This document shows, in pieces, positions 17,719 to 29,072 of a stretch of 32,000 nt of DNA. The stretch comes from Phycisphaera mikurensis NBRC 102666. GTDB taxonomy: Bacteria; Planctomycetota; Phycisphaerae; Phycisphaerales; Phycisphaeraceae. Every line of letters starts with the position of its first letter. Position 1 is the first letter of the stretch. Where the stretch lies: assembly GCF_000284115.1 (NCBI RefSeq), contig NC_017080.1, forward strand, positions 2,220,001 through 2,252,000, written 5' to 3'. Below the pieces are notes generated by a model. That model did not search any database. It had not been told where the DNA came from and saw only the letters and a program-made list of their open reading frames with translations. The translations under genes were made by a program, and so were the position numbers.

Positions 17719-19590
17719 ATGACCGCCGCCCCCACCTCCACGCTCTCCTCCCGCGGCATCACGCCCACGCGCCACGGGCCCGCCACCGACCGCTACGCCG
17801 GCATGACCGGGGCGCAGGCGTTCACGGCCCTGATGGCCGAGCACGGCGTCGACACGATCTTCGGATACCCAGGCGGCGCGATCCTCCCGGTCTTCGACGC
17901 GATCCACGAGAGCAAGAACTTCCAGTTCGTGCTCGCCCGCCACGAGCAGGGCGCCGGCCACATGGCCGAGGGCTACGCCCGCGTCACCGGCCGGCCGGGC
18001 ATCGTGCTGGTGACCAGCGGGCCGGGCGCCACCAACACGGTGACGCCCCTGCAGGACGCGCTGATGGACGGCACGCCGATCATCGTGTTCGCCGGCCAGG
18101 TGGCCACCGGCGCCATCGGCAGCGACGCCTTCCAGGAGGCGGACATGACCGGCATCACCCGGCCCTGCACCAAGTGGAACACGCTGGTGAAGGACGTGGA
18201 CGACCTGCCCCGCGCCGTCAACACCGCCTTCCACGTGGCCACCACCGGCCGCCCCGGCCCGGTGTTCGTCGACCTGCCCAAGGACGTCACCGCGGCGCTG
18301 ATCGGCGGGAGCGTGCACGACCAGGTGCACCTGCCCGGCTACGCCATGCGCGAGGCCGGGACGTCCTCGCAGATCCGGGAGGCGGCCGAGCTGATCAACC
18401 GGGCGGAGAAGCCGCTGCTCTACGTCGGCCAAGGCGCGATCCTCTCCGGCGCCGAGGGGATCCTCGCGCAGTGCGCCCGCGACGCCGGCATCCCCGTGAC
18501 GACGACGCTGCAAGGCCTCGGCGCCTTCCCCGAGACCGACGAGCTCTCGGTGCACATGCTCGGCATGCACGGCTCGGCCTACGCCAACTGGGCGATGCGG
18601 GACGCCGACGTGGTGATCTCGGTGGGCGCCCGCTTCGACGACCGCGTCACCGGCAACGTCGCCACCTTCGCCCCCGGCGCCCGTGCGGCGGAGGCCGCCG
18701 GCCGCGGCGGCATCATCCACTTCGACATCGCCCCCGAGAACATCAACAAGGCGGTGCCGGTGGCGATCGGGGTCGAGGGCGACGCGAAGAAGAACCTCGA
18801 GCTGCTCCACCCGCTGCTCACCCGCCACGACGCCGCCGGGGCGACCGACCGCAGCGCCTGGCTCAAGCAGATCGCCAACTGGAAGGCGGAGGCGCCGTTC
18901 GCGTTCGACCACGACGAACGCGAGTTCCACCTCAAGCCCCAGGCGGTCATCCAGGAGCTCTACGAGCAGCTCGGCGAGAACGGCATCATCACCACCGGCG
19001 TGGGCCAGCACCAGATGTGGGCGGCCCACTTCTACCAGTACACCTTCCCCAAGCAGTGGATGACCAGCGGCGGGCTGGGCACGATGGGCTTCGGCGTGCC
19101 CTCGAGCGTGGGCGCGCAGGCCGGCGAGATGATCGAGGCCAAGAAGCAGGGGCGTCCGCACCGGCAGGTCGTCAACATCGACGGCGACGGCAGCTTCTCG
19201 ATGACCTGCATGGAGATGACCACCGCCGCGCAGTACGGAATCCCCGCGAAGTCGATCATCCTCAACAACGACTTCCAGGGCATGGTCAAGCAGTGGCAGG
19301 ACCTCTTCTACGAGGAGCGGTACTCGCACACCGAGATGCACAACCCCGACTTCGTGAAGCTCGTCGAGGCGATGCACTGCGGGGCCTTCCGCGTGACGAA
19401 GCTCGAGGACCTGCCACGCGTGATGAAGGCGTTCCTCGCGTACGACGGCCCCGCCGTGCTCGAAGCGCTCGTGGAGAAGCACGAGCACGTGTACCCGATG
19501 GTGCCCGCCGGCAAGAGCGTCGACGAGATGGTCCTCGGCAAGCCGCCGGTGCCCGCCGATGCGCCCGAGGCCGTCAAGGCCGAGGGCTGA
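17719..19590 (+). CDS. ilvB: Acetolactate synthase (acetohydroxyacid synthase) large subunit
   Basis: It carries 'GVDTIFGYPGGAILPVFDA', 'RHEQGAGHMAEGYARVTGRPGIVLVTSGPGATN', 'QEADMTGITRPCTKW' and 'GLGTMGFGVPSSVGAQ...IDGDGSF'. ATG 17719 is chosen; GTG 17701 is the alternative. No ilvN or ilvC follows it in this window. Confidence 0.9.
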   Translation: MTAAPTSTLSSRGITPTRHGPATDRYAGMTGAQAFTALMAEHGVDTIFGYPGGAILPVFDAIHESKNFQFVLARHEQGAGHMAEGYARVTGRPGIVLVTSGPGATNTVTPLQDALMDGTPIIVFAGQVATGAIGSDAFQEADMTGITRPCTKWNTLVKDVDDLPRAVNTAFHVATTGRPGPVFVDLPKDVTAALIGGSVHDQVHLPGYAMREAGTSSQIREAAELINRAEKPLLYVGQGAILSGAEGILAQCARDAGIPVTTTLQGLGAFPETDELSVHMLGMHGSAYANWAMRDADVVISVGARFDDRVTGNVATFAPGARAAEAAGRGGIIHFDIAPENINKAVPVAIGVEGDAKKNLELLHPLLTRHDAAGATDRSAWLKQIANWKAEAPFAFDHDEREFHLKPQAVIQELYEQLGENGIITTGVGQHQMWAAHFYQYTFPKQWMTSGGLGTMGFGVPSSVGAQAGEMIEAKKQGRPHRQVVNIDGDGSFSMTCMEMTTAAQYGIPAKSIILNNDFQGMVKQWQDLFYEERYSHTEMHNPDFVKLVEAMHCGAFRVTKLEDLPRVMKAFLAYDGPAVLEALVEKHEHVYPMVPAGKSVDEMVLGKPPVPADAPEAVKAEG

Positions 19591-19645
19591 AAGACCGAGG
19601 GCTGAAAGGCCAGGATGCCGCGCCCCCGCGGCCGAGCCTCGTGAA

Positions 19646-20503
19646 TCAGTCGTAGGCGATGCCGCCGAGGCGGCGGTGGAGCGCCTCGTGCGCGGCGACG
19701 TCGGCCCGCCAGGCGGCCTCCGTCGCGGGACCGCCGCCGGGCTCGCCCCGCAGCACCACGCCGACGCCGGCGGCGGTCGCGCCTCCGAAGGCCGCACGCC
19801 AGGCGCCCAGCCCGGCGGGCGTCCGCGGGACCTCCACGAGCGCGAGCACCCGGCGGCCGCGGCGGCCGGCCTCGTCGAAGAAGCGCTCGACCGCTCCGGC
19901 GGAGCGGCCTTCCGGCGGAGCAACCGCGAGCAGGTCGACCGAAGCCAGCACCGCCGCGTCCCGGTCCGACGCGGCGGGATCGGCGTCCCGGCCCGGCAGG
20001 AAGCCGACGCGGGCCACCCGCTGCCCGGGCGCTCGGTCCCGGACCGCGGCGACGAACGCCGCGACGGCGTCCGGTTCGGCGTCGCCTGCCTCGATGAGCA
20101 CGACGCCGCTGGAGGGCAGCGTCGGGAGCCCGGCGGCGGGCGTTCCCACCGCCAGCACGACGACCCGCTCGCCCGGCGTCGACGCCTCCGGGCCGCTGAG
20201 CGCGTTGTAGATCCGGCTCCGGCGGGCGGGGTCGGGCGCCGTCGGCGTCGGCTCCACACCGGGGGGAGCGGCGACCGGCGCCGCAGCGGGCTGGGCCTCG
20301 CCCGGATCCGCGGACCGCGGCGCCTGCGGCCCTCCGACGGCCGCGGTCCGCGGGAGCGTGCCCGCGGGCGGCCCGGCGGGCCCGGTGGCGTCGGCAGGCG
20401 TGGGCGCCGCCGTCAGCCGCCCCGACCCGCCCGCCGCCCCGTAGAAGACCGCCACCCCGAGGCAGACCCCGGCGGCGCAGGCGATCGAGGAGCGGAGGTC
20501 CAT
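19646..20503 (-). CDS. Hypothetical protein with an N-terminal hydrophobic anchor and a Pro/Ala-rich linker
   Basis: GC3 is high in this frame. 'MDLRSSIACAAGVCLGVAVFYGAAGG' looks like a signal or anchor sequence. A low-complexity P/A/G linker and a ~200-aa unrecognised domain follow. ATG at 20503; the upstream ATG at 20548 is the alternative. Confidence 0.6.
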   Translation of the reverse strand: MDLRSSIACAAGVCLGVAVFYGAAGGSGRLTAAPTPADATGPAGPPAGTLPRTAAVGGPQAPRSADPGEAQPAAAPVAAPPGVEPTPTAPDPARRSRIYNALSGPEASTPGERVVVLAVGTPAAGLPTLPSSGVVLIEAGDAEPDAVAAFVAAVRDRAPGQRVARVGFLPGRDADPAASDRDAAVLASVDLLAVAPPEGRSAGAVERFFDEAGRRGRRVLALVEVPRTPAGLGAWRAAFGGATAAGVGVVLRGEPGGGPATEAAWRADVAAHEALHRRLGGIAYD

Positions 20504-20572
20504 GGAGCTTCTTTCGGCTGCCGGCGGGATGGGCGTGAGAAGCGTCATCGAGGTCCCCCGGGGTTCAGATCC

Positions 20573-21325
20573 GCCCGGCCGCGGTCGCTGCGTGGCGACG
20601 CCACGCTGTCCGGGTCGCCATCCAGCTCCTTGGCGCACAAGCCAGACAGAGCGGCGTCGCCGCTCAGCTCTCGGAGCCAGCCTGGCCGCGGTAGCTGCGT
20701 GGCGACGCCACGCTGTCCGGGCCGCCGATCCAGCTCCCTCGCGCACAAGGCAGACAGAGCGGCGTCGCCGCTCAGCTCTCGGAGCCAGCCTGGCCGCGAT
20801 AGCTGCGTGGCGACGCCACGCTGTCCGACTCCCGATCCAGCTCCCTCGCGCACAAGGCAGACAGAGCGGCGTCGCCGCTCAGCTCTCGGAGCCAGCTTGG
20901 CCGCGCTAGCTGCGTGGCGACGCCACGCTGTCCGACTCCCGATCCAGCTCCCTCGCGCACAAGCCAGACAGAGCGGCATCGCCGCTCAGCTCTCGCCGCC
21001 AGCTTGGCCGCGGTCGCTGCGTGGCGACGCCACGCTGTCCGAGCCGCCGATCCAGCTCCCTCGCGCACAAGGCAGACAGAGCGGCGTCGCCGCTCAGCTC
21101 TCGGAGCCAGCCTGGCCGCGCTAGCTGCGTGGCGACGCCACGCTGTCCGAGCCCCGATCCAGCTTCCTCACGCACAAGCAGACAGAGCGGCGTCGCCGCT
21201 CAGCTCTCGGAGCCAGCCTGGCCGCGGTAGCTGCGTGGCGACGCCACGCTGCCCGAGCCGCGATCCAGCTCCTTCGCGCACAAGCAGACAGAGCGGCATC
21301 GCCGCTCAGCTCTCGCCGCCAGCCT
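20573..21325. repeat. Tandem array of 7 copies (plus a partial leading copy) of a ~107-bp unit with two 17-bp palindromes per unit
   Basis: Units start at 20587, 20694, 20802, 20909, 21016, 21124 and 21230, giving periods of 107, 108, 107, 107, 108 and 106 bp. Consensus unit: GCTGCGTGGCGACGCCACGCTGTCCG-[~8 nt variable]-GATCCAGCTCCCTCGCGCACAAGGCAGACAGAGCGGCGTCGCCGCTCAGCTCTCGGAGCCAGCCTGGCCGCGnTA. It contains the perfect palindromes GCGTGGCG-A-CGCCACGC and GAGCGGCG-T-CGCCGCTC. Confidence 0.9.
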
Positions 21326-21492
21326 CCGCCGGCATCGCCTCCGGCGACCACCACCCCGCAACCGCTGTTCCACCGACCGGTCCATGCATTGGGGCTCCGC
21401 CAGGGGCTCCATCGGAGGCGCGACCGCGAGGGCGGGGCACCCGGAGGCGGTGCGTCCGCGCCGCGGCGGAGGCGTCCCAGCCATTCGAGGCC

Positions 21493-24400
21493 TCAGCGGC
21501 GGCGGCGGCGCGTGAGCAGGCTCAGGCCGACCCCCAGCGCGGCGGCGGTGCCGGGCTCGGGAACCAGGAGGCCCGCATCCACGAAGCGCTGGCGGGCGAG
21601 CGCACCGTCGGCGAAGAGGTCCAGGAACGGGTCGATGTCGCCGCGGTCGAAAACGAAGTCGCGGTTGACGTCGCCGGTAACCAGCGCGTCGATCGAGAAG
21701 GCCCGCTGGTACGCGTCCACGTCGGTGAGCGCCAGCACGGCGGCGTCGGCGTCGTCGAGGTCGATCACGCCGTCGCGGGTGAAGTCGCCGCTGATCTCCC
21801 CGAGGAAGGCGGTGACGAACAGCTCGGCGTCGACGCCGTCGAGCGTGCCGTCGGGGTTCAAGTCCAGCGTCCAGAGGAGGTCGGCGTCGGTGGTGAAGCG
21901 GTTGTCGCGGAGGAACAGCAGGTCGAAGCTGTCGGTGTCGCCGTTGCCGTTGAGGTTCCCGCGGCGGTCGAGCACCTCGTCGTAGGCGGCGGCCGCGTCG
22001 GCGGTGACGGCGGCGGCGTCGAAGAGCGGGCGGATGGCGAGCAAGTCCAGCGTGTCGACGTTCCCGTCGCCGTTGGCGTCGGCGGCGGGGCTGAACAGCC
22101 GATTGCGGCTGTAGAGGAAGGTCTCGAAGTTCGTCGCCGAAGCGGTCAGATCGGCGCGGGTGAGCGAGCCGTCGCCGTCGACGTCGCCGATGCCGGCGCC
22201 GTTCCCGTTGTCGATGCCGATCCCGCTGTAGCGGCGGACGCTGCGGTTGCCGGTGACTTCGAAGGTGACCAGCGTGACCGCGTTGTTGCCGGCGGCCACG
22301 CCGGTAAAGCCGCGGCGGAACAGGTCGCGGTCGATGCGGTTGCCGGCGTTGCCGCCGTCGACCTGCGCCAGCACCTCGGCATCGGTGAGGCCGCTGCCCA
22401 GATTCAGGAAGAAGTGCATCGCGTCGGCGGTGCCATCGGTGCTGCGTCCGTCGAAGTCGATGTCGTGGCCGTCGGCGCTGAAGGGCGTCAGGCCGGCGAG
22501 GGCGGACTCGGGAGCGAGGCGGTCGACGTAGAGGACTTCCTTGAAGTCTTCGAAGACCGCCGGTCCGCCGTCGCCGCCGGTGGCCACGTCGCGGTGGCGG
22601 AAGGCGCGGACGGTGAGGTAGTGCTCGCCCTCGGCCAGGCCGGTGGTGTCGATCGTCTGGGCGAAGCGGCCGCGGCCGTCCGCGTTGAAGAAGCCCGGGT
22701 CGTTCACGTCGGTGAAGTTCTCGAAGCCGTAGGCGGTGCTGCCGGGCGTTGTGAAGTCGACCGCCCCGCTGCCGTTCAGGTCCAGGCCGCCGTCGAGGCG
22801 GAAGGCGGCGAAGTCGCCGTCGGCGTCGCGGTCGCGGACCGCGATCTGCTCGATTTGCTGCGTCAGCGGGTTCAGCCAGCCGCCGGTGTGCGTGACGGCG
22901 TCGGTCTCCAGCGAGATGCCCAGCGTGTCGCCGGTCACCACGCGGAGCGGGGCGAGCCGAGCGCGGGAGCGGTCGCGGTTGCTGCCGGCGTCGGGCACGC
23001 CGTCGCCGTCGGTGTCGACCGTGAGCGGAACGGCATCGGGGCCGATCGTGCGGGTGGAGCCGGCGAGCTGGATGCCGGCGGAGGACTCGGGCTTCGCCAA
23101 GCCGTAGACGAGGTAGCCCTTGTCCTGCCCGTCGTTGCGGAGCGCGCGGACGGTGACCTTCGACGGCCCCGCGAAGAAGTCGTTGTCGACGACGAGCAGC
23201 TCGGCGATGTCCGCCTCGGCCGCCGCGTTGCCGGTGAGCTCGACCAGCGGCGTGCCGAAGGGCAGGTCGACCTCGACGCGGCGCGTGTCGAAGCCGGCAT
23301 CGTTGCGGTTGGACAGCACGACCAGCGCGCTGCCGGCCCGCTCGTAGACGAGCGTCTCCTTCTCCAGGAAGCGCTCGCGGTAGTCGCCGCGGCCATGCGT
23401 TTCGCGGAGCTTCGTGAGCGTGGTGATCCGGTCGCTGCCGGTGCCCAGCGCGTCGCGGCGGCCGTCCTTGGGGAAGTCGCGGCCGTCGCCGTGCTCCTCG
23501 GCGTTGTGGTAGACGACCGCGTTGCCCGGCCGCATCAGCATGTGCGCGTGGGCGACGTTGTTCATCGCCAGGCCGTTCTGCGCGGGCCCGTCATCGTGGC
23601 TCTGCACGAAGAGCAGGCCGTTGCTGCCGTTGATCAGCCCGTCGTCGGCGACGTCCATGCCCGACGCCTGCACGGCGCGCCAGTCGTTGCCGATCGCGTT
23701 GCCCTGCAGGTTGCGGGCCAGGGCGGCCTGGTAGTTGAAGTCCAGCGTGTCGCGGTTCCCGCCGACGCGGCCGGGATCGTTGGGATCGATGTCCTTGCGG
23801 ACGTGGACGCCCAGCAGCGTGCCCGTGTCGGTGAGGAAGGCTTCGCCGAAGCTGAACACGTCGCGGCGGCTGCCGTCCAGGTTCGTCCGCGTGCTCGCCC
23901 GGTACACGGCCTGGTCGAAGTAGTCGAAGACGAAGGGCTCGAAGTGCTTGGTGGCGTCGAGGCGGAAGCCGTCGACGCCGACGTCGGCGACCATCCAGCG
24001 GCTGTTCCGCATGAGCAGGCCCATCGCGTTCTCGGGCACGGCGTCGCCGGCGAGCGGATCGGACGTGTTGAAGGGGTGGATCGCGATGTCCTGCTCACCG
24101 GTGTACGGGTTGAACACGCGGATCGGATCCAGGTCGCGGTCGGCGTAGAAGCGGGCGTTGGCCGGGTCGGGCCGATTCGCGGAGGTACCTGCAGGGATGT
24201 TGCGGGGGTCGTTCGCGTTCACCGGCGTGCGGATGAACCGGAAGTTGGTCGCGTGGTTGATGTCGATCAGGCCCGCGAGGCGGCCGCGGAGGTCGCCGCC
24301 CTCGAAGGCGGAGTGGAAGTCGCCGTCGGTGCCGGGCACGCCGAAGGGGTCGCTGCCGCCATCCGGATCCTGGAGGAAGAAGCCCGGGTACCCGCCGCCG

Positions 24401-24810
24401 GCGATGAAGCCCGGCCGGCTGGCGTCGGAGAAGCCGTTGTGGTTAAGCACCTGGTCGACGTAGATGCTGCCGCCGACGCGGTGGATGCGGTCGGTCAGCG
24501 TGCGGAGGCCGGTCTCCGTGCCGTACAGCGTCGGGGCGTTGGCGCGGCCGAGGTCGAAACGGTCGTACACGTCGTAGCCGACGCTCTGGTTGCCCGAGTC
24601 GGCGCGGCCCACCGGCGGCACCCACGTGCCGCCGTAGCCGGCCAGGAAGAAGTCGCCGAGGCGGTTCTCCTGGTTCTCGTACGTGCTGTCGAACCACTGG
24701 AGGATCGCGGGGGCGGACACGTCCTGCGCGAAGGCGGAGCCGGGGGCCAGCGGGGCCGCGAGGGCGGCGGCGAGGAGGCAGCGGGAGCGGGAGAGGGAGA
24801 GGATGGCCAT
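21493..24810 (-). CDS. Secreted GH13 alpha-amylase with C-terminal dockerin-like Ca-binding repeats and a PEP-CTERM anchor
   Basis: ATG at 24810 gives the signal peptide 'MAILSLSRSRCLLAAALAAPLAPGSAFAQ'. GH13 conserved regions are 'YVDQVLNHNG', 'GFRLDATKHF', 'FSFGEAF' and 'FVQSHD'. The C-terminal third carries repeated 'D.NGDG..D..D' and 'GDVDGDGSLTRADL' dockerin/EF-hand-like motifs. The terminus 'VPEPGTAAALGVGLSLLTRRRRR' is a PEP-CTERM motif. Confidence 0.85.
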   Translation of the reverse strand: MAILSLSRSRCLLAAALAAPLAPGSAFAQDVSAPAILQWFDSTYENQENRLGDFFLAGYGGTWVPPVGRADSGNQSVGYDVYDRFDLGRANAPTLYGTETGLRTLTDRIHRVGGSIYVDQVLNHNGFSDASRPGFIAGGGYPGFFLQDPDGGSDPFGVPGTDGDFHSAFEGGDLRGRLAGLIDINHATNFRFIRTPVNANDPRNIPAGTSANRPDPANARFYADRDLDPIRVFNPYTGEQDIAIHPFNTSDPLAGDAVPENAMGLLMRNSRWMVADVGVDGFRLDATKHFEPFVFDYFDQAVYRASTRTNLDGSRRDVFSFGEAFLTDTGTLLGVHVRKDIDPNDPGRVGGNRDTLDFNYQAALARNLQGNAIGNDWRAVQASGMDVADDGLINGSNGLLFVQSHDDGPAQNGLAMNNVAHAHMLMRPGNAVVYHNAEEHGDGRDFPKDGRRDALGTGSDRITTLTKLRETHGRGDYRERFLEKETLVYERAGSALVVLSNRNDAGFDTRRVEVDLPFGTPLVELTGNAAAEADIAELLVVDNDFFAGPSKVTVRALRNDGQDKGYLVYGLAKPESSAGIQLAGSTRTIGPDAVPLTVDTDGDGVPDAGSNRDRSRARLAPLRVVTGDTLGISLETDAVTHTGGWLNPLTQQIEQIAVRDRDADGDFAAFRLDGGLDLNGSGAVDFTTPGSTAYGFENFTDVNDPGFFNADGRGRFAQTIDTTGLAEGEHYLTVRAFRHRDVATGGDGGPAVFEDFKEVLYVDRLAPESALAGLTPFSADGHDIDFDGRSTDGTADAMHFFLNLGSGLTDAEVLAQVDGGNAGNRIDRDLFRRGFTGVAAGNNAVTLVTFEVTGNRSVRRYSGIGIDNGNGAGIGDVDGDGSLTRADLTASATNFETFLYSRNRLFSPAADANGDGNVDTLDLLAIRPLFDAAAVTADAAAAYDEVLDRRGNLNGNGDTDSFDLLFLRDNRFTTDADLLWTLDLNPDGTLDGVDAELFVTAFLGEISGDFTRDGVIDLDDADAAVLALTDVDAYQRAFSIDALVTGDVNRDFVFDRGDIDPFLDLFADGALARQRFVDAGLLVPEPGTAAALGVGLSLLTRRRRR

Positions 24811-24869
24811 GGCGTGGACGCCGGTTTGGTGCAGGGGAGGCGCAGCGGGAGCCCGCTGCCGCCGAAACA

Positions 24870-24899
24870 GACGGCCCCGGCGTTCCCGCCGGGGCCGTC
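24870..24899 (-). terminator. Intrinsic-terminator-like hairpin after the 297-aa PEP-CTERM gene
   Basis: 13-bp perfect stem: gacggccccggcg / cgccggggccgtc. The loop is ttcc, which reads GGAA on the minus strand and is GNRA-type. On the transcribed minus strand it is followed by TGTTTCGG. It lies 60 nt downstream of the stop at 24960. Confidence 0.55.
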
Positions 24900-24959
24900 G
24901 CTTGTCGCCCTCCTCCACCGTGGGCCGGAGAGCCTTTTGCCAAGCGAGACGCAGGAGGG

Positions 24960-25853
24960 TCAGCCGCGGCGACGACCGGCGATCAGCAGGCCGCCGAGGC
25001 CGAGCAGCGCGAGGCTGGCGGGCTCGGGGACGACCGGAGCCGAAATGGTCACGAACTGTTCACCGGCGAGCGTGTTGAGGTCCACGACCGTCGGATCCCC
25101 GAGGTTGCCCGTGCCCGCAGGCAGCGAGCCGAGGAGCTGATTGGAGGCGAAGGTGCCGTCGGCGCTGGTGTAGATCGCCGCGACCTTGATGTCGCCCTCG
25201 GTGGTGCCAAAGAACGCGGCGAGATCGATCTCCAGCTCGATGCCGGTCGTCGCCGAAGCGGCGAGTGAAGCATCGGCATCGGTGACGCCGAGCACGTTGC
25301 TGTTGTCCCAGCCAACCTGCACGCCGTTCGAGCCGACGTTGCTCAGCGGCAGGTCGCCAGGGCCGCCGCCCGAGACCACGCTGACGGCGGTGTTGTCGAT
25401 CAGGTCGAAGGCATTCACGCCGTAGAAGCCGCTGCCGATCTCGAAGCGGAGGCCGTGATCTGCGGTGAAGCCGCTGTCGAACGTCAGGCCCGCGAGCGCG
25501 TTGACCTCGCCGAAGCCGCCGTCGGCGTTGTCGTTCGCGAGGACGTTCTCGCCGCCCGCGACACCATCGAAGAACAGGAACAGCTTGTTGAAGTTGCCCT
25601 CGACGTTGCCGGTGATGCCCAGCTCAAGATTTCCGGTCGCGGCGTTGTAGTCGCCGAAGATCTGGTTCAGCTCGCCGCCGCCCGCAGAGTCTTGGCCGCC
25701 GCCGGTGGCGTTTCCGAAGCCGGTCGCGTTCTGCTGCGTGGCGAGCAGCGTGAGACCCTCGGACGGGATGTTCTGCCCATCGAGCGTGATGGCCGAGGCG
25801 GAGCCCGCGGCGGCGAGGGAAGCGGCGGCGGAGAGAAGAGTCAGGGTTTTCAT
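24960..25853 (-). CDS. PEP-CTERM sorting-domain protein of unknown function (297 aa)
   Basis: ATG at 25853 is preceded on the minus strand by GGAGG. The signal peptide is 'MKTLTLLSAAASLAAAGSASA'. The body is Gly/Asn/Asp/Thr-rich ('ITLDGQNIPSEG...GNVEGNFNKLFLFFDG'). The C-terminus 'VVPEPASLALLGLGGLLIAGRRRG' is a PEP-CTERM motif. Confidence 0.8.
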   Translation of the reverse strand: MKTLTLLSAAASLAAAGSASAITLDGQNIPSEGLTLLATQQNATGFGNATGGGQDSAGGGELNQIFGDYNAATGNLELGITGNVEGNFNKLFLFFDGVAGGENVLANDNADGGFGEVNALAGLTFDSGFTADHGLRFEIGSGFYGVNAFDLIDNTAVSVVSGGGPGDLPLSNVGSNGVQVGWDNSNVLGVTDADASLAASATTGIELEIDLAAFFGTTEGDIKVAAIYTSADGTFASNQLLGSLPAGTGNLGDPTVVDLNTLAGEQFVTISAPVVPEPASLALLGLGGLLIAGRRRG

Positions 25854-25883
25854 CGGAACCTCCAGGGGAGTGACGTGGCCGGT

Positions 25884-25907
25884 GGGCGGCTTCCACGAAG
25901 CCGCATC
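25884..25907 (-). promoter_or_regulatory. Conserved 24-nt leader hairpin motif, copy 1
   Basis: gggcggcttccacgaagccgcatc (8-bp stem gcggcttc/gaagccgc) lies 31 nt upstream of the ATG at 25853. It is identical to 26623-26646. The homology continues to the upstream stop codon. Confidence 0.5.
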
Positions 25908-25957
25908 ACCACCGGGAAGGCCGCGATCGCCGTCTCCGGCGGCCGCGGGGAGAGGGA

Positions 25958-26593
25958 TCAAGCGCGGCGGCGGCGGAACAGGAGCGCCGCTCCGGCGCCC
26001 AGCAACGCGAGGCTCGCCGGCTCGGGCACGACGCTGAAGGTGGCCGTGTAATTGCTCCCGCCGTTGTCGGCGAGCTGATCGCCGTCCGCGGCGGTGAAGG
26101 CCCTCGCGAAGATCTCGATCTCGTAGTCGCCCTCGACCAGGCCGGCGACCACGTCCGGCGTGCTGGTGATGCCGCCGGGGCCGCCCCAGAGCTGGTCGCC
26201 GCCGCCGGTGAAGGTGTTCCCCGCGGCGTCGGTGAAGGTCGCGTTGGCGCCGAAGTTGTGCGCGATCGCCGTGAAGACGCCCGGCGCGTCGCCCACGCGC
26301 GTGACGCGGTAGTTGGTCTCGACGCCGGTGACGTCGCTGCCACCGTTCTTGAAGGTGAGGCCCTGCGCGTTGGAGATCACCAGCGTGTCGCCGGTGACGT
26401 CGAAGTCGCCGAGATCGAGGCCGTCGAAGTCGCTCAGCGGGCTGGACCCGGGCACCAGGAGGTTGTAGGAGGTCGCGGCCCCGCCGCTGGCGGTGAGCTC
26501 GACGTACGCGCCGAAGATGCCCGCGGCGCCGAAGGCGGAGGTGCTGGAGGCGGCAACGGCCGAGGCTGCCAGGACGGAAAACAGACGGTTCAT
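25958..26593 (-). CDS. PEP-CTERM sorting-domain protein of unknown function (211 aa)
   Basis: ATG at 26593 gives the signal peptide 'MNRLFSVLAASAVAASSTSAFGA'. The body is Gly/Thr/Asp-rich. The C-terminus 'VVPEPASLALLGAGAALLFRRRRA' is a PEP-CTERM motif. Confidence 0.8.
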   Translation of the reverse strand: MNRLFSVLAASAVAASSTSAFGAAGIFGAYVELTASGGAATSYNLLVPGSSPLSDFDGLDLGDFDVTGDTLVISNAQGLTFKNGGSDVTGVETNYRVTRVGDAPGVFTAIAHNFGANATFTDAAGNTFTGGGDQLWGGPGGITSTPDVVAGLVEGDYEIEIFARAFTAADGDQLADNGGSNYTATFSVVPEPASLALLGAGAALLFRRRRA

Positions 26594-26622
26594 GCGGATT
26601 CTCTTCGATCGGACTCGGACAT

Positions 26623-26646
26623 GGGCGGCTTCCACGAAGCCGCATC
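26623..26646 (-). promoter_or_regulatory. Conserved 24-nt leader hairpin motif, copy 2
   Basis: gggcggcttccacgaagccgcatc lies 30 nt upstream of the ATG at 26593 and is identical to 25884-25907. The flanking ~50 nt towards the upstream stop (26698) also align with copy 1. Confidence 0.5.
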
Positions 26647-26697
26647 GCACGCGGGAAAGCAGCGACCGCCGTTCCCGGCGGGCGGTGCGGGGAGAGT

Positions 26698-27642
26698 TCA
26701 GAAGTCCCAGGGGGAGACGCGGACGGAGTCGAAGTCGCTGCGCGGCACGCTGCTGCCGTGGCCGTCGACGAAGGCGACGTTGAGCGCACCGTTGTGGCGG
26801 TCGTTCTCGCTCACGTCGGCGCTCCGGGTCGTCACGTCCTTGGAGGGGAGCCCGTCGGAGAGGTACGAGAACTGAGCCATCGCGTCGAGCGTCCCGCCGA
26901 CGTTGAGGAACAGCGTCGAGAAGTACGTGGAGTCGTTCCACTGCACGGGGTTCCCGCCGGAGTTGGTGAACGGCCGCGTGCCGTAGTCGCCGTAGAGGAG
27001 TGTCTCGCTGGGCGCGGTCACGTTGTCGAGGTTGCCGCCGAGGGTGCCCTTGAGCGTCGGCGTGCCGTTGACCTCGGCGTACGCCGCGATGATCTGCCCG
27101 AAGCCGACCTGACCCCGCGTCCCGTCGGCGGTGGGGATGGCGGCGATGTCCGCGTTGACTCCATAGGAGATGGGGTCGAACTCGTTGCCGTTCGCGTCGG
27201 CCACGGTGTTGATGACGAGACGGTGCCCGGGCTGCTGCTGCTCCATGTCCGGGTCCTTCGGGCACACGAAGATCCGGGACACCTGCGGGTCGGTGTTGAG
27301 GAAGGTCTCCGAGGTGGCGCCGCCGAGGTAGGGAACCAGGGCCGAGGCCCAGTCCTTCACGAAGCGACCCGCGGGATCGGAGCGGAAGTCGTTGTACTGG
27401 GCCCACCGCGTGTTGATCACGCTGTTGTGGTCGGTGATCGTCTGGATGTGCTGCTTGTGGTCCGTGGCGAAGGTGTAGCCCGCCTGCCCGAGCGAACGCA
27501 CGTTCGCGAGGCACTTGAGGTTCTGCGCCGTGTCGCGGGCCGCACCCAGCGCGGGAAGGAGGATTCCGATCAGCAGGGCGATGATCGAGATCACCACCAG
27601 AAGCTCGATGAGCGTGAAGCCGGAGCGGGAGGAGCGGGTCAT
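26698..27642 (-). CDS. Prepilin-type N-terminal cleavage/methylation domain protein of the H-X9-DG (DUF1559-like) class
   Basis: ATG at 27642 gives 'MTRSSRSGFTLIELLVVISIIALLIGILLPAL', a type IV pilin-like leader with the GFTLIE motif. The C-terminal 'HNGALNVAFVDGH' fits the H-X9-DG signature. Confidence 0.85.
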   Translation of the reverse strand: MTRSSRSGFTLIELLVVISIIALLIGILLPALGAARDTAQNLKCLANVRSLGQAGYTFATDHKQHIQTITDHNSVINTRWAQYNDFRSDPAGRFVKDWASALVPYLGGATSETFLNTDPQVSRIFVCPKDPDMEQQQPGHRLVINTVADANGNEFDPISYGVNADIAAIPTADGTRGQVGFGQIIAAYAEVNGTPTLKGTLGGNLDNVTAPSETLLYGDYGTRPFTNSGGNPVQWNDSTYFSTLFLNVGGTLDAMAQFSYLSDGLPSKDVTTRSADVSENDRHNGALNVAFVDGHGSSVPRSDFDSVRVSPWDF

Positions 27643-27655
27643 GAGAAGCCTTGGT

Positions 27656-27674
27656 GGAGGTGAAACGGTTAACC
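27656..27674. promoter_or_regulatory. Candidate LacI-family operator, site A, in the leader of the H-X9-DG gene
   Basis: GGAGGTGAAACGGTTAACC lies 14-32 nt upstream of the ATG at 27642. It matches the reverse complement of site B at 17 of 19 positions, giving the shared motif GGAGGTGAAACRGTTWACC. Confidence 0.4.
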
Positions 27675-27926
27675 CGGAGCGGGTGGATGGAAGAGAATCC
27701 TCCCAAGCGGGAGGAAAAGGCCCGGCAAGCGGGGCATGAGATCGGGAGCAAGGGGGTGACTTCAACCCCCGGTCGGGCGAAATCGGCGAGAACTCGGGAG
27801 GCAGGAGGTGCGATTCCGGAGAAACGTCCGGAACGTCCGCGGATCGGGCCGCAAACGGGGGTCCACGATACACCGTCCGCGGAGGGAGTCAAGCGCAGCA
27901 CCGTGGAAGTTGCGTGCGCGGCGGCG

Positions 27927-27948
27927 GGAGGTAAACTGTTTCACCTCC
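27927..27948. promoter_or_regulatory. Candidate LacI-family operator, site B, upstream of lacI
   Basis: GGAGGTAAACTGTTTCACCTCC is a near-palindrome (GGAGGT-AAAC-T-GTTT-CACCTCC). It lies 42-63 nt upstream of the lacI ATG at 27990. The AAAC/GTTT core resembles LacI/GalR operators, although the centre is odd-spaced. Confidence 0.4.
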
Positions 27949-27989
27949 CGGCGGCTCGATTCTTCCTCCACGCCCCTCCGGCGGCTCCC

Positions 27990-29039
27990 ATGCGAAACGC
28001 TCCAGGCACCACCTCCCGCAAGCGGGTCGGCATCCGCGACATCGCCGCCAGCGCCGGCGTCTCCACGGCCACCGTGTCGATGGTGCTCAACGACAACCCG
28101 AAGATCTCCGACGCGACCCGCGACCGGGTGCGGGCGGAGATCGATCGGTCGGGCTACCAGCCCAACCGGATCGCCCAGTCGCTCTCGGGCAAGTACACGC
28201 GGGTGATCGGCATCCTGCTGCCCGAGCTTCGGCACACGCTGGCGGACCCCTACTTCGGCGAGGTCATCTCCGGCGTGTGCGACCGTGCGGCGCAGCTGGG
28301 CCACAAGGTGACGCTGGAGAGCGCGCGACCGGACTTCATCCGCGAGCGGAAGCACCTGGAGCTGTTCGAACGGCGCTTCGTCGATGGCGTGCTGTGCATC
28401 GGCTTCGACGACCGACACAACTTCCTGGGCGACTTCTCGGCGGCGGGGCACCCGATGCTGGTGGTCAACAACCGCTTCGACGGGCTCGGCGAGGCGACCG
28501 GCGTCGTGCTCTGCGACTACGCCGCGGGGGCGGAGCGGGCGCTCGCGTACCTCGACCAGCTGGGCCACCGGCGCGTCGGGATGGTCTACGGCAGCCGCGA
28601 CGTCCACACCTCGCGCCTGCTCGTCGACGCCTTCGAGAAGCGGCACCACGCCTTCGACCCGTCGCTGCTGGAGGAGGGCCGCTTCGCCGAGGACCCGGGG
28701 CAGGCCGCCGCCGCCGCCCTGCTCGATCGGCACCCGGACCTCACCGCCCTGTTCTGCGGCAACGACAAGATGGCGCTCGGGGCGGTCCGCGAGCTGACCG
28801 ACCGCGGCTTGCGCGTGCCCGAGGACGTCTCGGTGATCGGCTTCGACGACCTGCCCTACGCCCGCTTCATGAACCCCGCACTCTCGACGGTCCACTTGCC
28901 CTTCTACGAGGTGGGCGACCTCGCCTGCGAGCGACTGGTCGAGCGGATCCGCGGCCGCAAGAAGCCGGTCGACGAGACGCTGCCGACCCGCCTGGTCATC
29001 CGCGAATCCACCGGCCGCGCCACCCCCCGGCGCCGCTGA
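27990..29039 (+). CDS. LacI-family transcriptional regulator
   Basis: ATG at 27990 is followed by the HTH 'VGIRDIAASAGVSTATVSMVLNDNPKISDATRDRVRAEIDRSGYQPNRIAQSL'. A periplasmic-binding-protein-like sugar-binding core follows ('VDGVL', 'GHRRVGMV', 'ALFCGNDKMALGA', 'PEDVSVIGFDD'). Confidence 0.9.
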   Translation: MRNAPGTTSRKRVGIRDIAASAGVSTATVSMVLNDNPKISDATRDRVRAEIDRSGYQPNRIAQSLSGKYTRVIGILLPELRHTLADPYFGEVISGVCDRAAQLGHKVTLESARPDFIRERKHLELFERRFVDGVLCIGFDDRHNFLGDFSAAGHPMLVVNNRFDGLGEATGVVLCDYAAGAERALAYLDQLGHRRVGMVYGSRDVHTSRLLVDAFEKRHHAFDPSLLEEGRFAEDPGQAAAAALLDRHPDLTALFCGNDKMALGAVRELTDRGLRVPEDVSVIGFDDLPYARFMNPALSTVHLPFYEVGDLACERLVERIRGRKKPVDETLPTRLVIRESTGRATPRRR

Positions 29040-29072
29040 ATCTTCTTCTCCGTCCACTCTCGGACCCTCCTC

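What the first reader, a model, noticed from the sequence alone, without database searches (positions are those of the whole stretch)
20573..21325. Seven tandem copies of a ~107-bp non-coding unit, each carrying two perfect 17-bp palindromes
About 750 bp of the ~950-bp gap between the amylase 3' end (21493) and the start of the hypothetical gene (20503 or 20548) is a head-to-tail array.

- **Unit structure.** Periods are 106-108 bp. Every unit carries GCGTGGCG-A-CGCCACGC and, 60 bp later, GAGCGGCG-T-CGCCGCTC. The two palindromes share the core GGCG(A/T)CGCC.
- **Variation.** Only about 8 nt after CTGTCCG varies between units. A few variants are shared in a mosaic pattern: GGCATCGCC with CTCGCCGCCAG occurs in units 4 and 7, and ACTCCCGA occurs in units 3 and 4. 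This suggests recombination or gene conversion between units.
- **Why it is not coding.** All six frames are open, but the period is not a multiple of 3, so the repeated-peptide ORFs in the track are artefacts.
- **Why it is not CRISPR.** There are no unique spacers.

I see four possible readings. It could be a BIME-2-like cluster of alternating REP-type palindromes. It could be an array of repeated small-RNA genes, as known for tandem sRNA arrays in cyanobacteria. It could be a multi-site landing pad for a dimeric DNA-binding protein. Or it could be a long structured 5' leader or upstream regulatory array for the adjacent gene. I cannot place it in any described family from memory.
Basis: seen in the sequence. 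Interest (0 to 1): 0.7.

Follow-up and report, generated by a model that had tools for sequence, protein, structure and literature searches.

The report
Tandem cluster of REPIN-like palindromic repeats
The 750-bp array is real and non-coding, and it is best read as seven head-to-tail copies of a selfish-type palindromic repeat that also occurs elsewhere in this bacterium's genome; this is a known kind of bacterial repeat, here a new family in an unusual lineage.

Summary
Window 20573-21325 carries 7.0 copies of a 106-108-bp unit at 92% identity. It is non-coding and base-identical in two independent assemblies of Phycisphaera mikurensis.

- P2 is a perfect palindrome in 5 of 7 units.
- 24 of 112 aligned columns vary.
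- The six frames together contain 15 stop codons.

**What it is.** Each unit is an inverted pair of one asymmetric module, [AGCT][17-bp palindrome][TGTCYG]. P1 lies on the plus strand and P2 on the minus strand, separated by two spacers. That is the layout of a REP doublet (REPIN), repeated in tandem as in BIME-2 and REPIN clusters.

**The family is dispersed**
- Spurious ORFs PSMK_00570, PSMK_05570 and PSMK_21390 translate related units at three distant chromosomal loci.
- A marine metagenome contig (L120) holds a solo unit, again just downstream of a PEP-CTERM gene.

**Constraint on symmetry.** All three arm differences among P1, P2 and L120's P2 are compensated.

**Negative results**
- Orthologous gaps in relatives lack the unit.
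- There is no Rfam match and no promoter or terminator consensus.
- The window contains no transposase.

**Not tested.** RAYT association and genome-wide copy number could not be checked.

**Verdict.** This is a new member of a known kind, of modest interest.

The parts
20573..21325 (.). Whole tandem array: 7 units of 106-108 bp
   Evidence: TRF gives period 107, 7.0 copies, 92% matches, score 1229. The sequence is identical in a second assembly. No gene is called here.
20573..20679 (.). Unit 1, an edge unit and among the most divergent. P1 20590-20606, P2 20649-20665.
   Evidence: It differs from the other units at 9-16 positions.
20680..20787 (.). Unit 2 (108 bp). P1 20697-20713, P2 20757-20773.
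   Evidence: It differs from unit 5 at only 3 positions.
20788..20894 (.). Unit 3. P1 20805-20821, P2 20864-20880. Carries the variable patch ACTCCCGA, shared with unit 4.
   Evidence: It is the best match to covariance model R1, at 115 bits.
20895..21001 (.). Unit 4. P1 20912-20928, P2 20971-20987. P2 is imperfect (GGCATCGCC), and the unit carries the CTCGCCGCCAG variant shared with unit 7.
21002..21109 (.). Unit 5 (108 bp). P1 21019-21035, P2 21079-21095.
21110..21215 (.). Unit 6 (106 bp). P1 21127-21143, P2 21185-21201.
21216..21325 (.). Unit 7, the edge unit and the most divergent. P1 21233-21249, P2 21291-21307 (imperfect, GGCATCGCC).
   Evidence: It differs from the other units at 13-16 positions.
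21326..21492 (-). Non-repeated 167 nt between the stop codon of the amylase-like gene and the array
   Evidence: Read directly from the sequence
20504..20572 (-). Non-repeated 69 nt between the array and the ATG of PSMK_18960
   Evidence: Read directly from the sequence. The gene call comes from L061.
21493..24810 (-). Upstream co-directional gene: amylase-like protein of 1105 aa with a PEP-CTERM-type C-terminal tail
   Evidence: Pfam Alpha-amylase, E = 1e-05. The translation ends in ...PEPGTAAALGVGLSLLTRRRRR. The NCBI gene call is L061 5694-9011.
19646..20503 (-). Downstream co-directional gene: hypothetical protein of 285 aa (BAM04055; PSMK_18960 inferred from the accession-to-tag offset)
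   Evidence: 100% identical to P0001. Accession. No Pfam family. Seven homologues exist in relatives.

Best explanation
The array is a tandem cluster of seven REPIN-like elements, belonging to a dispersed family of extragenic palindromic repeats in Phycisphaera mikurensis.

**Anatomy (shown)**
- The basic module is about 27 nt and asymmetric: AGCT, then a 17-bp palindrome with 8-bp arms and one central base, then TGTCYG.
- Each 107-bp unit holds two such modules in inverted orientation. P1 is on the plus strand and P2 on the minus strand.
- The TGTC ends face each other across a spacer of about 30 nt. The AGCT ends face the neighbouring unit across a spacer of about 23 nt.
- Each palindrome can form a 7-bp hairpin of about -9 kcal/mol as single-stranded DNA. 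The whole unit can close into one hairpin of about 90 nt.

**History (partly shown, partly inferred)**
- Shown: the same unit sits at three or more other distant loci in the chromosome, and as a solo copy in a marine relative.
- Inferred: one doublet arrived downstream of the PEP-CTERM amylase gene in the P. mikurensis lineage. Orthologous gaps in relatives lack it.
- Inferred from the pattern of variation: the doublet was then amplified and partly homogenised by unequal exchange or slippage between units. Central units are nearly identical, edge units are divergent, and variants are shared in a mosaic.

**Spread (inferred by analogy, not shown)**
- Movement to new loci is most likely through single-stranded hairpin intermediates handled by a HUH/Y1 (RAYT-type) transposase.

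**Effect on the host (inferred)**
- The array lies between two co-directional genes, so it is probably transcribed with the amylase mRNA.
- Like E. coli REPs, its hairpins may slow 3'-to-5' decay or dampen read-through into PSMK_18960.
For: - **Array is real and reproducible:**
- **Non-coding:** no GC3 signal, no gene called, stops in every frame.
- **Inverted-module anatomy:** the flanks AGCT and TGTCYG are shared only in inverted orientation. Flank identity is 14-20 of 34 inverted, against 10-16 of 34 direct.
- **Constraint on symmetry:**
  - P1, P2 and L120's P2 differ at three arm positions, each compensated on the other arm.
  - The only uncompensated change sits next to the centre, where a hairpin loop must be.
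- **Structural model:** local palindromes plus a terminal stem give 92.9% paired cells and 4 pairs changed on both sides. P1:P2 pairing gives 83.1%.
- **Dispersal:**
  - PSMK_00570, PSMK_05570 and PSMK_21390 translate related units at 80-82% identity, with two units in two of them.
  - The window's own gene is PSMK_18960, so these are distant loci.
- **Solo copy in another organism:** L120 has 81% identity over 99 nt, scores 94 bits against model R1, and again lies just after a PEP-CTERM gene.
- **Tandem-array dynamics:** edge units are the most divergent, units 2 and 5 differ at 3 sites, and the variants of units 3/4 and 4/7 occur in all four combinations.
- **Not an ancestral regulatory region:** four orthologous loci lack the unit.
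- **The lineage carries similar elements:** families of 134-136 bp and 152 bp form tandem arrays in relatives, at two sites in one 17-kb locus, with copy number 2.9 against 3.5 between genomes that are 89% identical.
- **Known precedent:**
  - REP heterodimers with structured spacers, and clusters of dimers reiterated in tandem, are described, and REPs with Y1 transposases occur in the planctomycete R. baltica (PMC3733652).
Against: - **Copy number is only known to be at least four loci.** Classical REPs number tens to thousands. The rest of the genome could not be scanned, and no other copy lies in the 32-kb window.
- **No RAYT or any other transposase is in the window**. Its presence in the genome is untested.
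- **The GTAG tag typical of many REPs is not conserved.** It appears before P1 in 2 of 7 units, and the P2 side reads GAGA. The rules of the CGTC family are not met.
- **The palindromes are perfect, with a single central base.** Classical REPs are imperfect, with bulges.
- **The covariation is thin.** All of it comes from one divergent sequence (L120). The seven units are copies of one another, not independent observations.
- **Spacer B folds no better than shuffled sequence** (z = 0.2-0.4).
- **Nothing here shows transcription or any effect on the flanking genes.**
Confidence: 0.68

Rival explanations
1. The array works at the RNA level. In this reading it is a string of structured modules in the 3' UTR or intercistronic region of the amylase mRNA. 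These modules would act as stabilisers, processing sites or protein sponges, or would be cut into small RNAs of about 100 nt. The repeat-element ancestry would then be secondary.
For: - The array lies between two co-directional genes.
- In both the window and L120, the unit has the same orientation relative to the upstream PEP-CTERM gene.
- The minus, sense-strand RNA folds more stably: -527 against -437 kcal/mol for the whole array, and in 7 of 7 units.
- The G-to-A variant of units 4 and 7 becomes a G-U pair in the minus-strand long hairpin.
- The orthologous gap in L059 is also packed with perfect hairpins.
Against: - The strand advantage is mostly compositional. The minus strand is G-rich, with C = 307 against G = 238 on the plus strand. 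After dinucleotide shuffling the z-scores are similar, at -2.8 against -2.3 per unit.
- No unit has promoter-like or terminator-like sites.
- There is no Rfam family match.
- The unit is not conserved at the orthologous locus.
- In relatives, the analogous 134-bp family sits in the same orientation at two sites whose genes run in opposite directions.
- The orientation evidence for this family rests on only two loci.
Confidence: 0.1
2. The unit is a conventional MITE: an internally deleted DDE-type insertion sequence. It would be recognised through its terminal inverted repeats (CTGGCCGCGGTAGCT ... AGCTCTCGGAGCCAG) and would insert repeatedly next to itself.
For: - The units are bounded by imperfect inverted termini, matching at 9-12 of 15 positions.
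- L120 keeps an 8-bp terminal stem through three pairs changed on both sides.
- A 152-bp repeat in the relative L058 has 13-bp perfect inverted termini.
Against: - No target-site duplication can be seen at the array edges or around the L120 copy.
- The termini are weak, and segment B folds no better than shuffled sequence.
- The strongly conserved parts are the internal palindromes rather than the ends.
- The window contains no insertion sequence.
Confidence: 0.1
3. The array is a multi-site platform for a dimeric DNA-binding protein, such as a regulator, a nucleoid protein or a partition-type protein. The protein would recognise the shared core GGCG(A/T)CGCC in duplex DNA.
For: - There are fourteen near-perfect 17-bp dyads at regular spacing, sharing a 9-bp core.
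- The array ends 69 nt upstream of a gene start.
- A LacI-family regulator gene lies in the window.
Against: - The dyads differ between P1, P2 and L120 by paired changes. This preserves symmetry but not sequence.
- The dyads have odd symmetry around a single base, unlike LacI-type operators with a central CG. This point rests on general knowledge.
- Copies occur at unrelated loci and directly after stop codons.
- Orthologous promoters lack them.
- No partition genes are nearby.
Confidence: 0.05
4. The array is a conserved structured 5' leader or upstream control region that belongs to PSMK_18960.
For: The array is adjacent to and co-oriented with the gene.
Against: - Four orthologous loci keep the gene (50-53% identity) and its synteny but have no unit upstream. 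In two of them the upstream neighbour is a different, divergent gene with a short gap.
- The same unit occurs at loci with other genes.
Confidence: 0.03

Closest known systems
REPINs and ordered REPIN clusters of Pseudomonas fluorescens SBW25 (Bertels & Rainey 2011, PMC3116915)
   Same: - Two short palindromic REP modules sit in inverted orientation, separated by a less conserved spacer, and the whole can fold into one long hairpin.
- The placement is extragenic.
[quoted passage not shown] SBW25's largest such cluster has 4 REPINs and exceeds 700 bp.
   Different: - There are seven doublets here, against four in SBW25's largest REPIN cluster.
- The palindromes are perfect 8-bp arms around one base, not imperfect cores.
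- No RAYT has been shown.
- Only four or more loci are known, not hundreds.
- The host is a planctomycete of class Phycisphaerae, not a gammaproteobacterium.
- There is no sequence similarity.
BIME-2 of Escherichia coli: tandemly alternating Y and Z2 REPs with two linker types (description from general knowledge)
   Same: - Two related palindromes alternate in opposite orientations.
- They are separated by two distinct linkers and reiterated head to tail.
- They sit between co-directional or convergent genes, after a gene's 3' end.
   Different: - There is no sequence similarity to any of 5,426 E. coli genomes.
- No GTAG tag is conserved.
- The spacers are longer.
- Gyrase or IHF binding is untested.
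GTAG- and CGTC-tagged REP super-families (Di Nocera et al. 2013, PMC3733652)
   Same: - Stems of 5-13 bp.
- Organisation as inverted dimers 20-100 bp apart, often heterodimers that differ at stem positions, with structured spacers.
- Clusters made of dimers reiterated in tandem.
- Spurious short ORFs annotated over repeats.
- Families reported in Planctomycetes (R. baltica).
   Different: - The flanking tetranucleotide is GTAG in only 2 of 7 P1 copies and GAGA on the P2 side.
- TGTC abuts the stem, but the stems do not begin with A-T pairs and the loop is not 4-5 nt as in CGTC families.
- The element therefore fits neither tagged super-family.
Tandem long-hairpin repeats of 134-136 bp and 152 bp in related Phycisphaerae metagenome genomes (L057, L058; found here)
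   Same: - Intergenic tandem arrays of 2-3.5 units.
- Each unit is a long nested inverted repeat.
- Several sites occur per genome, and copy number varies between close relatives.
   Different: - The sequences and unit lengths are unrelated.
- Each unit is a single long hairpin, not two 17-bp perfect palindromes.
- These repeats have not been described anywhere that I could find.

Membership tests
REP / REPIN / BIME-type extragenic palindromic repeats | Short palindromic core in extragenic DNA | tested here: met
   The window holds 17-bp palindromes, 14 in all. The region has no coding signal and no called gene. As single-stranded DNA the hairpins fold at about -9 kcal/mol, z about -2.5 to -2.9.
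REP / REPIN / BIME-type extragenic palindromic repeats | [quoted passage not shown] | tested here: met
   The flanks AGCT and TGTCYG are shared only in inverted orientation. The P1-to-P2 segment folds as one hairpin in 6 of 7 units on each strand (unit 7 folds as two separate hairpins), at -34 to -54 kcal/mol.
REP / REPIN / BIME-type extragenic palindromic repeats | Dispersed at many loci in the genome (tens to thousands of copies) | tested here: inconclusive
   At least four distant loci are known: PSMK_00570, PSMK_05570, PSMK_21390 and this one at PSMK_18960. The whole genome could not be scanned, and the genome-collection scan did not return this species. No other copy lies in the 32-kb window.
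REP / REPIN / BIME-type extragenic palindromic repeats | Higher-order ordered clusters: doublets with their flanks reiterated in tandem | tested here: met
   Seven units with a period of 106-108 bp. Two-unit stretches also occur at PSMK_05570 and PSMK_21390.
REP / REPIN / BIME-type extragenic palindromic repeats | Cognate RAYT (Y1/HUH transposase) gene in the genome, flanked by the same repeats | not testable with these tools
   The 32-kb window has no transposase (Pfam scans).
GTAG- or CGTC-tagged REP super-families | Conserved unpaired GTAG or CGTC motif at one end. For CGTC families, also a stem starting with A-T pairs and a 4-5-nt loop. | tested here: not met
   The tetranucleotide before P1 reads GTCG, GTAG, ATAG, CTAG, GTCG, CTAG, GTAG in units 1-7. 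The P2 side reads GAGA in 7 of 7. The stems start G-C/C-G or G-C/A-T, and the centre is 1 nt. Criteria are taken from PMC3733652.
E. coli BIME-2 (sequence-level membership) | Sequence similarity to the Y and Z2 REPs of enterobacteria | tested here: not met
   blastn in distant mode against 5,426 complete E. coli genomes gave no match.
MITE (non-autonomous DDE transposon) | Terminal inverted repeats plus a target-site duplication | tested here: inconclusive
   The termini match at 9-12 of 15 positions, and L120 has a compensated 8-bp terminal stem. No direct duplication is visible at the array edges or around the L120 copy.
CRISPR array | Short direct repeats separated by unique spacers of similar length | tested here: not met
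   88 of 112 columns are invariant across units. The variable patch is only about 8 nt and is shared between units.
Any Rfam RNA family (including tandem sRNA families) | Match at the family's gathering score | tested here: not met
   There are 0 matches at gathering thresholds over the whole window. The only hits are sub-threshold ones to generic hairpin (miRNA) models, with a best score of 32.6 bits against a gathering score of 168.

The most novel reading that the evidence does not exclude
Phycisphaerae may carry a class of long-hairpin intergenic elements that is not RAYT-dependent. The 107-bp family here and the 134-136-bp and 152-bp families in relatives would be members. They would amplify preferentially in tandem at the 3' ends of genes and be kept because the transcribed hairpin arrays act as RNA-level insulators or stabilisers between co-directional genes. 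That would make them a lineage-specific repeat system with its own spreading mechanism and a host function.
Probability: 0.1. Interest if true: 0.6.

Novelty: new member of a known kind. Interest (0 to 1): 0.3.

Why it matters
REP, REPIN and BIME elements have been studied almost entirely in Proteobacteria.

- **A new lineage.** A clean seven-unit cluster of inverted REP-like doublets in a Phycisphaerae planctomycete extends the phenomenon to a poorly studied group. Unrelated tandem hairpin families in its relatives do the same.
- **A tractable test case.** It could show whether such clusters arise by transposase action or by local unequal exchange, and whether they affect expression of neighbouring genes. 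Here the neighbour is a surface-anchored amylase.
- **A practical warning.** The family generates spurious 'hypothetical proteins' (PSMK_00570, PSMK_05570, PSMK_21390) and breaks short-read assemblies at its palindromes.

Tried and rejected
1. **Genome-collection scan with the P1 19-mer** gave 56 singleton hits in unrelated phyla, no array, and not the source species.
2. **Metagenome scan with the same 19-mer** gave 62 singletons, of which only L120 is a true relative.
3. **Viral-contig scan with the two cores at the right spacing** gave one hit, L062. It lies inside a coding region and shows no further similarity, so it is chance.
4. **Plasmid, phage and E. coli collections** gave no match.
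5. **Minus-strand spurious-ORF search** found nothing.
6. **P0011**, a 1317-aa hit from the exhaustive protein search, is a low-complexity chance match.
7. **DNA for PSMK_00570, PSMK_05570 and PSMK_21390** could not be retrieved. Their gene context and orientation remain unknown.
8. **Covariance model R1** recovered only the seven units and L120. The weaker hits sit on the pre-selected 19-mer, and L112's hits lie in SerRS-like and UvrD-like coding sequence.
9. **L034's P1 match** is inside an ORF. **L004's match** is a hairpin 3 nt after a stop codon with 23 nt identical, but that is not significant given 118 pre-selected loci.
10. **Homology between the L059 orthologous gap and the unit** is not supported. 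Alignment scores fall within the shuffle range.
11. **L057 against L058 at the second array site** is a synteny break, not a filled-versus-empty pair, so no target-site information could be drawn.
12. **The long P1:P2 duplex as the conserved structure** is less well supported than the local palindromes.
13. **The minus-strand folding advantage as evidence for an RNA function** is largely explained by G-richness.
14. **The window-wide inverted-repeat list** was uninformative in this 73% GC sequence.
Full report
**1. Observation.**
The array is there. Tandem Repeats Finder reports window 20573-21325, period 107, 7.0 copies, 92% matches and score 1229.
- P1 (GCGTGGCGACGCCACGC) occurs exactly seven times, at 20590, 20697, 20805, 20912, 21019, 21127 and 21233.
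- P2 (GAGCGGCGTCGCCGCTC) follows 58-60 nt later.
- The distance from P2 to the next P1 is always 48 nt.
- Allowing three mismatches, both motifs are far above chance, and all matches beyond chance level lie in the array.

Three details of the finding need correction.
- P2 is a perfect palindrome in five of seven units. Units 4 and 7 read GGCATCGCC.
- 24 of 112 aligned columns vary, not only about 8 nt.
- The six frames are not all open. There are 5 stops on the plus strand and 10 on the minus strand.

The non-coding conclusion is nevertheless right.
- The array has no codon-position GC signature. GC3 is 0.73-0.78, against 0.93-0.99 in the flanking genes.
- NCBI calls no gene in the 990-bp gap.

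**2. Source and reliability.**
The window comes from Phycisphaera mikurensis.
- A second, independent draft assembly (GCA_014207395.1) is identical over 20,858 bases including the whole array. This answers the assembly-artefact objection as far as sequence data can.
- Short-read (Logan) contigs break 58 nt upstream of the gene's alternative start. That is exactly at the end of P1 in unit 1, as expected for a repeat.

**3. Context.**
The array lies between two minus-strand genes.
- It starts 167 nt after the stop of a 1105-aa amylase-like protein with a PEP-CTERM tail.
- It ends 69 nt before the start of a conserved hypothetical protein, BAM04055.
- The 32-kb window otherwise holds housekeeping and starch-utilisation genes and no transposase.

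**4. Anatomy.**
The two palindromes are the same module in opposite orientations.
- Read on the plus strand, P1 is ...AGCT-GCGTGGCGACGCCACGC-TGTCCG.
- Read on the minus strand, P2 is ...AGCT-GAGCGGCGACGCCGCTC-TGTCTG.
- The flanks match only in this inverted arrangement.
- The central base, A in P1 and T in P2 on the plus strand, says the same thing.

Each 107-bp unit is therefore an inverted heterodimer of an asymmetric module of about 27 nt, with two spacers.
- The inner spacer carries the variable patch.
- The outer spacer (segment B) joins neighbouring units.

Folding results are as follows.
- Each palindrome folds as a 7-bp hairpin of about -9 kcal/mol as single-stranded DNA, with z about -2.5 to -2.9.
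- Segment B folds no better than shuffled sequence.
- The P1-to-P2 segment can also fold as one hairpin of about 80 nt, in 6 of 7 units on each strand.

**5. No match to known RNA families or expression signals.**
- Rfam gives nothing at gathering thresholds. There are only sub-threshold hits to generic miRNA-hairpin models.
- No sigma-70-like promoter or intrinsic-terminator pattern occurs in 20300-21700 on either strand.

**6. The unit is a dispersed family.**
The period is 3n+2, so a translation across three units samples all three frames of a strand. I used this to look for spurious ORFs annotated over other copies.
- The plus-strand translation hit PSMK_00570.
- An exhaustive phmmer search added PSMK_21390 and PSMK_05570, at 80-82% identity. 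Each covers two consecutive units with different variable patches.
- The accession-to-tag offset places the window's own gene at PSMK_18960. These are therefore three further loci, far apart on the chromosome.
- PSMK_21390 carries the CTCGCCGCCAG variant of units 4 and 7, but without their G-to-A change. Variants are thus shared between loci as well as between units.

One metagenome contig, L120 (marine, 2.3 kb), holds a solo unit.
- It shows 81% identity over 99 nt and scores 94 bits against my covariance model.
- It lies about 30 nt after the stop of a PEP-CTERM gene, in the same orientation relative to that gene as in the window.

**7. Constraint on symmetry.**
- P1 and inverted P2 differ at arm positions 2 and 4, each with the matching change at positions 16 and 14.
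- L120's P2 (GAGCCGCGTCGCGGCTC) differs at position 5, with the matching change at position 13.
- All three arm differences are therefore compensated.
- The only uncompensated change is G-to-A in units 4 and 7. It is adjacent to the centre, where a hairpin loop must open.

I counted pairs on an alignment of the seven units plus L120.
- A model with each palindrome paired to itself, a terminal stem and the base of the inner spacer pairs 92.9% of cells. It has four pairs changed on both sides.
- A model with P2 paired to P1 pairs 83.1% of cells, and L120's change breaks two of its pairs.
- The caveat is that all covariation comes from L120, and the seven units are copies of one another.

The minus strand folds more stably: -527 against -437 kcal/mol for the array, and in 7 of 7 units. 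Most of this is explained by composition.
- The minus strand of the array is G-rich.
- After shuffling, the z-scores are similar.

I therefore do not count the strand asymmetry as evidence for an RNA function.

**8. Array dynamics.**
- Units 1 and 7 are the most divergent, at 9-16 differences from the other units.
- Central units 2 and 5 differ at three sites.
- The multi-base variant of units 3/4 and that of units 4/7 occur in all four combinations. That requires exchange between units.

This is the usual signature of amplification and homogenisation by unequal crossing-over or slippage.

**9. Relatives.**
Four loci orthologous for the downstream gene (50-53% identity, conserved synteny with the acetolactate synthase, PNP_UDP_1-family phosphorylase and transketolase genes) lack the unit.
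- In L059 and L060 the amylase-to-gene arrangement is kept. The 442-bp gap has no detectable similarity to the unit.
- That gap nevertheless holds at least six perfect palindromes with 7-9-bp arms.

Relatives L057 and L058 carry other tandem hairpin families.
- A 134-136-bp unit forms a single hairpin of about 120 nt, with z of -4.3 to -5.9.
- It sits at an orthologous site with 2.9 against 3.5 copies, in genomes that are 89% identical.
- It occurs again at a second site in L058, in the same orientation, although the flanking genes there run the other way.
- L058 also has a 152-bp repeat with 13-bp perfect inverted termini.

Tandem arrays of hairpin elements are thus a habit of this lineage, and the 107-bp array is a lineage-specific acquisition.

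**10. Comparison with the known.**
The architecture matches REP doublets (REPINs) and their ordered clusters.
[quoted passage not shown] The largest in P. fluorescens SBW25 has four REPINs and exceeds 700 bp (PMC3116915).
- Di Nocera and colleagues describe inverted REP dimers 20-100 bp apart, heterodimers differing at stem positions, structured spacers, clusters of dimers reiterated in tandem, and spurious ORFs over repeats. They also report REPs with tyrosine transposases in the planctomycete R. baltica (PMC3733652).

Membership is incomplete.
- The GTAG tag is not conserved, and the CGTC-family rules are not met.
- There is no similarity to E. coli genomes.
- Copy number is known only as four or more loci.
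- A RAYT could not be looked for.

I therefore file the array as a REPIN/BIME-like cluster of a new, untagged family, and not as a proven RAYT-mobilised REP.

**11. Mechanism, with its status.**
- *Shown:* the module anatomy, the hairpin potential, the compensated symmetry, the dispersal, the solo copy elsewhere, the absence from orthologous gaps, and the mosaic pattern with divergent edges.
- *Inferred:* a doublet arrived downstream of the amylase gene and was amplified locally by unequal exchange.
- *Inferred by analogy only:* spread through single-stranded hairpin intermediates handled by a Y1/HUH transposase.
- *Inferred:* co-transcription with the amylase mRNA, and a REP-like effect on mRNA decay or read-through.

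**12. Rivals.**
- An RNA-level role (0.10) is not excluded, and it is compatible with a repeat-element origin.
- A DDE-type MITE (0.10) is suggested by the weak inverted termini, but no target duplication is seen.
- A protein landing pad (0.05) and a gene-specific leader (0.03) are disfavoured, by the compensated sequence changes and by the comparative data respectively.

**13. Verdict.**
It is a new family of a known kind of element in an understudied lineage, and of modest interest.

Noticed in passing
L058 5767-6236 and 13560-13816; L057 5852-6247: A 134-136-bp tandem repeat family occurs in related Phycisphaerae metagenome genomes. Each unit is a single hairpin of about 120 nt (z = -4.3 to -5.9). 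Copy number is 3.5 against 2.9 at an orthologous site between the SRP54 and HPr genes, in genomes that are 89% identical. A second array in L058 has the same orientation although the flanking genes run the other way.
   Followed up: partly
L058 13203-13496: A different 152-bp repeat, present in 1.9 copies, has 13-bp perfect inverted termini (CGGCAGGTGGCTC ... GAGCCACCTGCCG). It lies directly beside the 134-bp array, between the PNP_UDP_1-family and transketolase genes.
   Followed up: no
L059 3108-3550 (same region in L060 1131-1572): The gap orthologous to the array's gap has no similarity to the 107-bp unit. It holds at least six perfect palindromes with 7-9-bp arms. Two of them are related and differ by compensated changes: CCGGACTGC-GT-GCAGTCCGG and CCGGATCAC-AC-GTGATCCGG.
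   Followed up: partly
L004 2204-2229: In a Planctomycetota metagenome genome, a single hairpin CAGCGTGGCGTCGCCACGCAGCT sits 3 nt after a stop codon. Its 23 nt are identical to the minus-strand P1 with flanks. It may be a singleton of the same module, but the match is not significant given how the locus was selected.
   Followed up: partly
window 21493-31889: The array sits at the edge of a starch-related cluster. The cluster has two alpha-amylase-family genes (one with CBM48 and AMPK1_CBM modules), a LacI-family regulator, a protein with a prepilin-type N-methylation motif, and three PEP-CTERM-tailed proteins in a row. The PEP-CTERM amylase also has dockerin-like D-x-D-x-D repeats near its C-terminus.
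   Followed up: partly
window 19576-19608: A 15-bp tandem duplication (AAGACCGAGGGCTGA, 2.2 copies, 94% matches) straddles the stop codon of the acetolactate synthase large-subunit gene. It lies in the short convergent gap before the end of PSMK_18960.
   Followed up: no
P. mikurensis annotation (PSMK_00570, PSMK_05570, PSMK_21390): Three annotated 'hypothetical proteins' in the finished genome are wholly or partly translations of this repeat family and are almost certainly not genes. The N-terminal 180 aa of PSMK_00570 also look like an antisense ORF, being rich in arginine and proline.
   Followed up: partly
Genome-contig collection: The scan for a 19-mer that occurs seven times in the window returned no Phycisphaera contig. 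This stretch of the species is therefore absent or masked in that collection. Negative results from the scan do not speak to the source genome.
   Followed up: no
L125 1-58 (window about 20549-20606): Two independent Logan short-read assemblies (SRR12223476 and SRR29904083) both end their contig at the same base, the end of P1 in unit 1. Their gene call uses the upstream ATG at window 20548, giving 300 aa instead of 285.
   Followed up: partly
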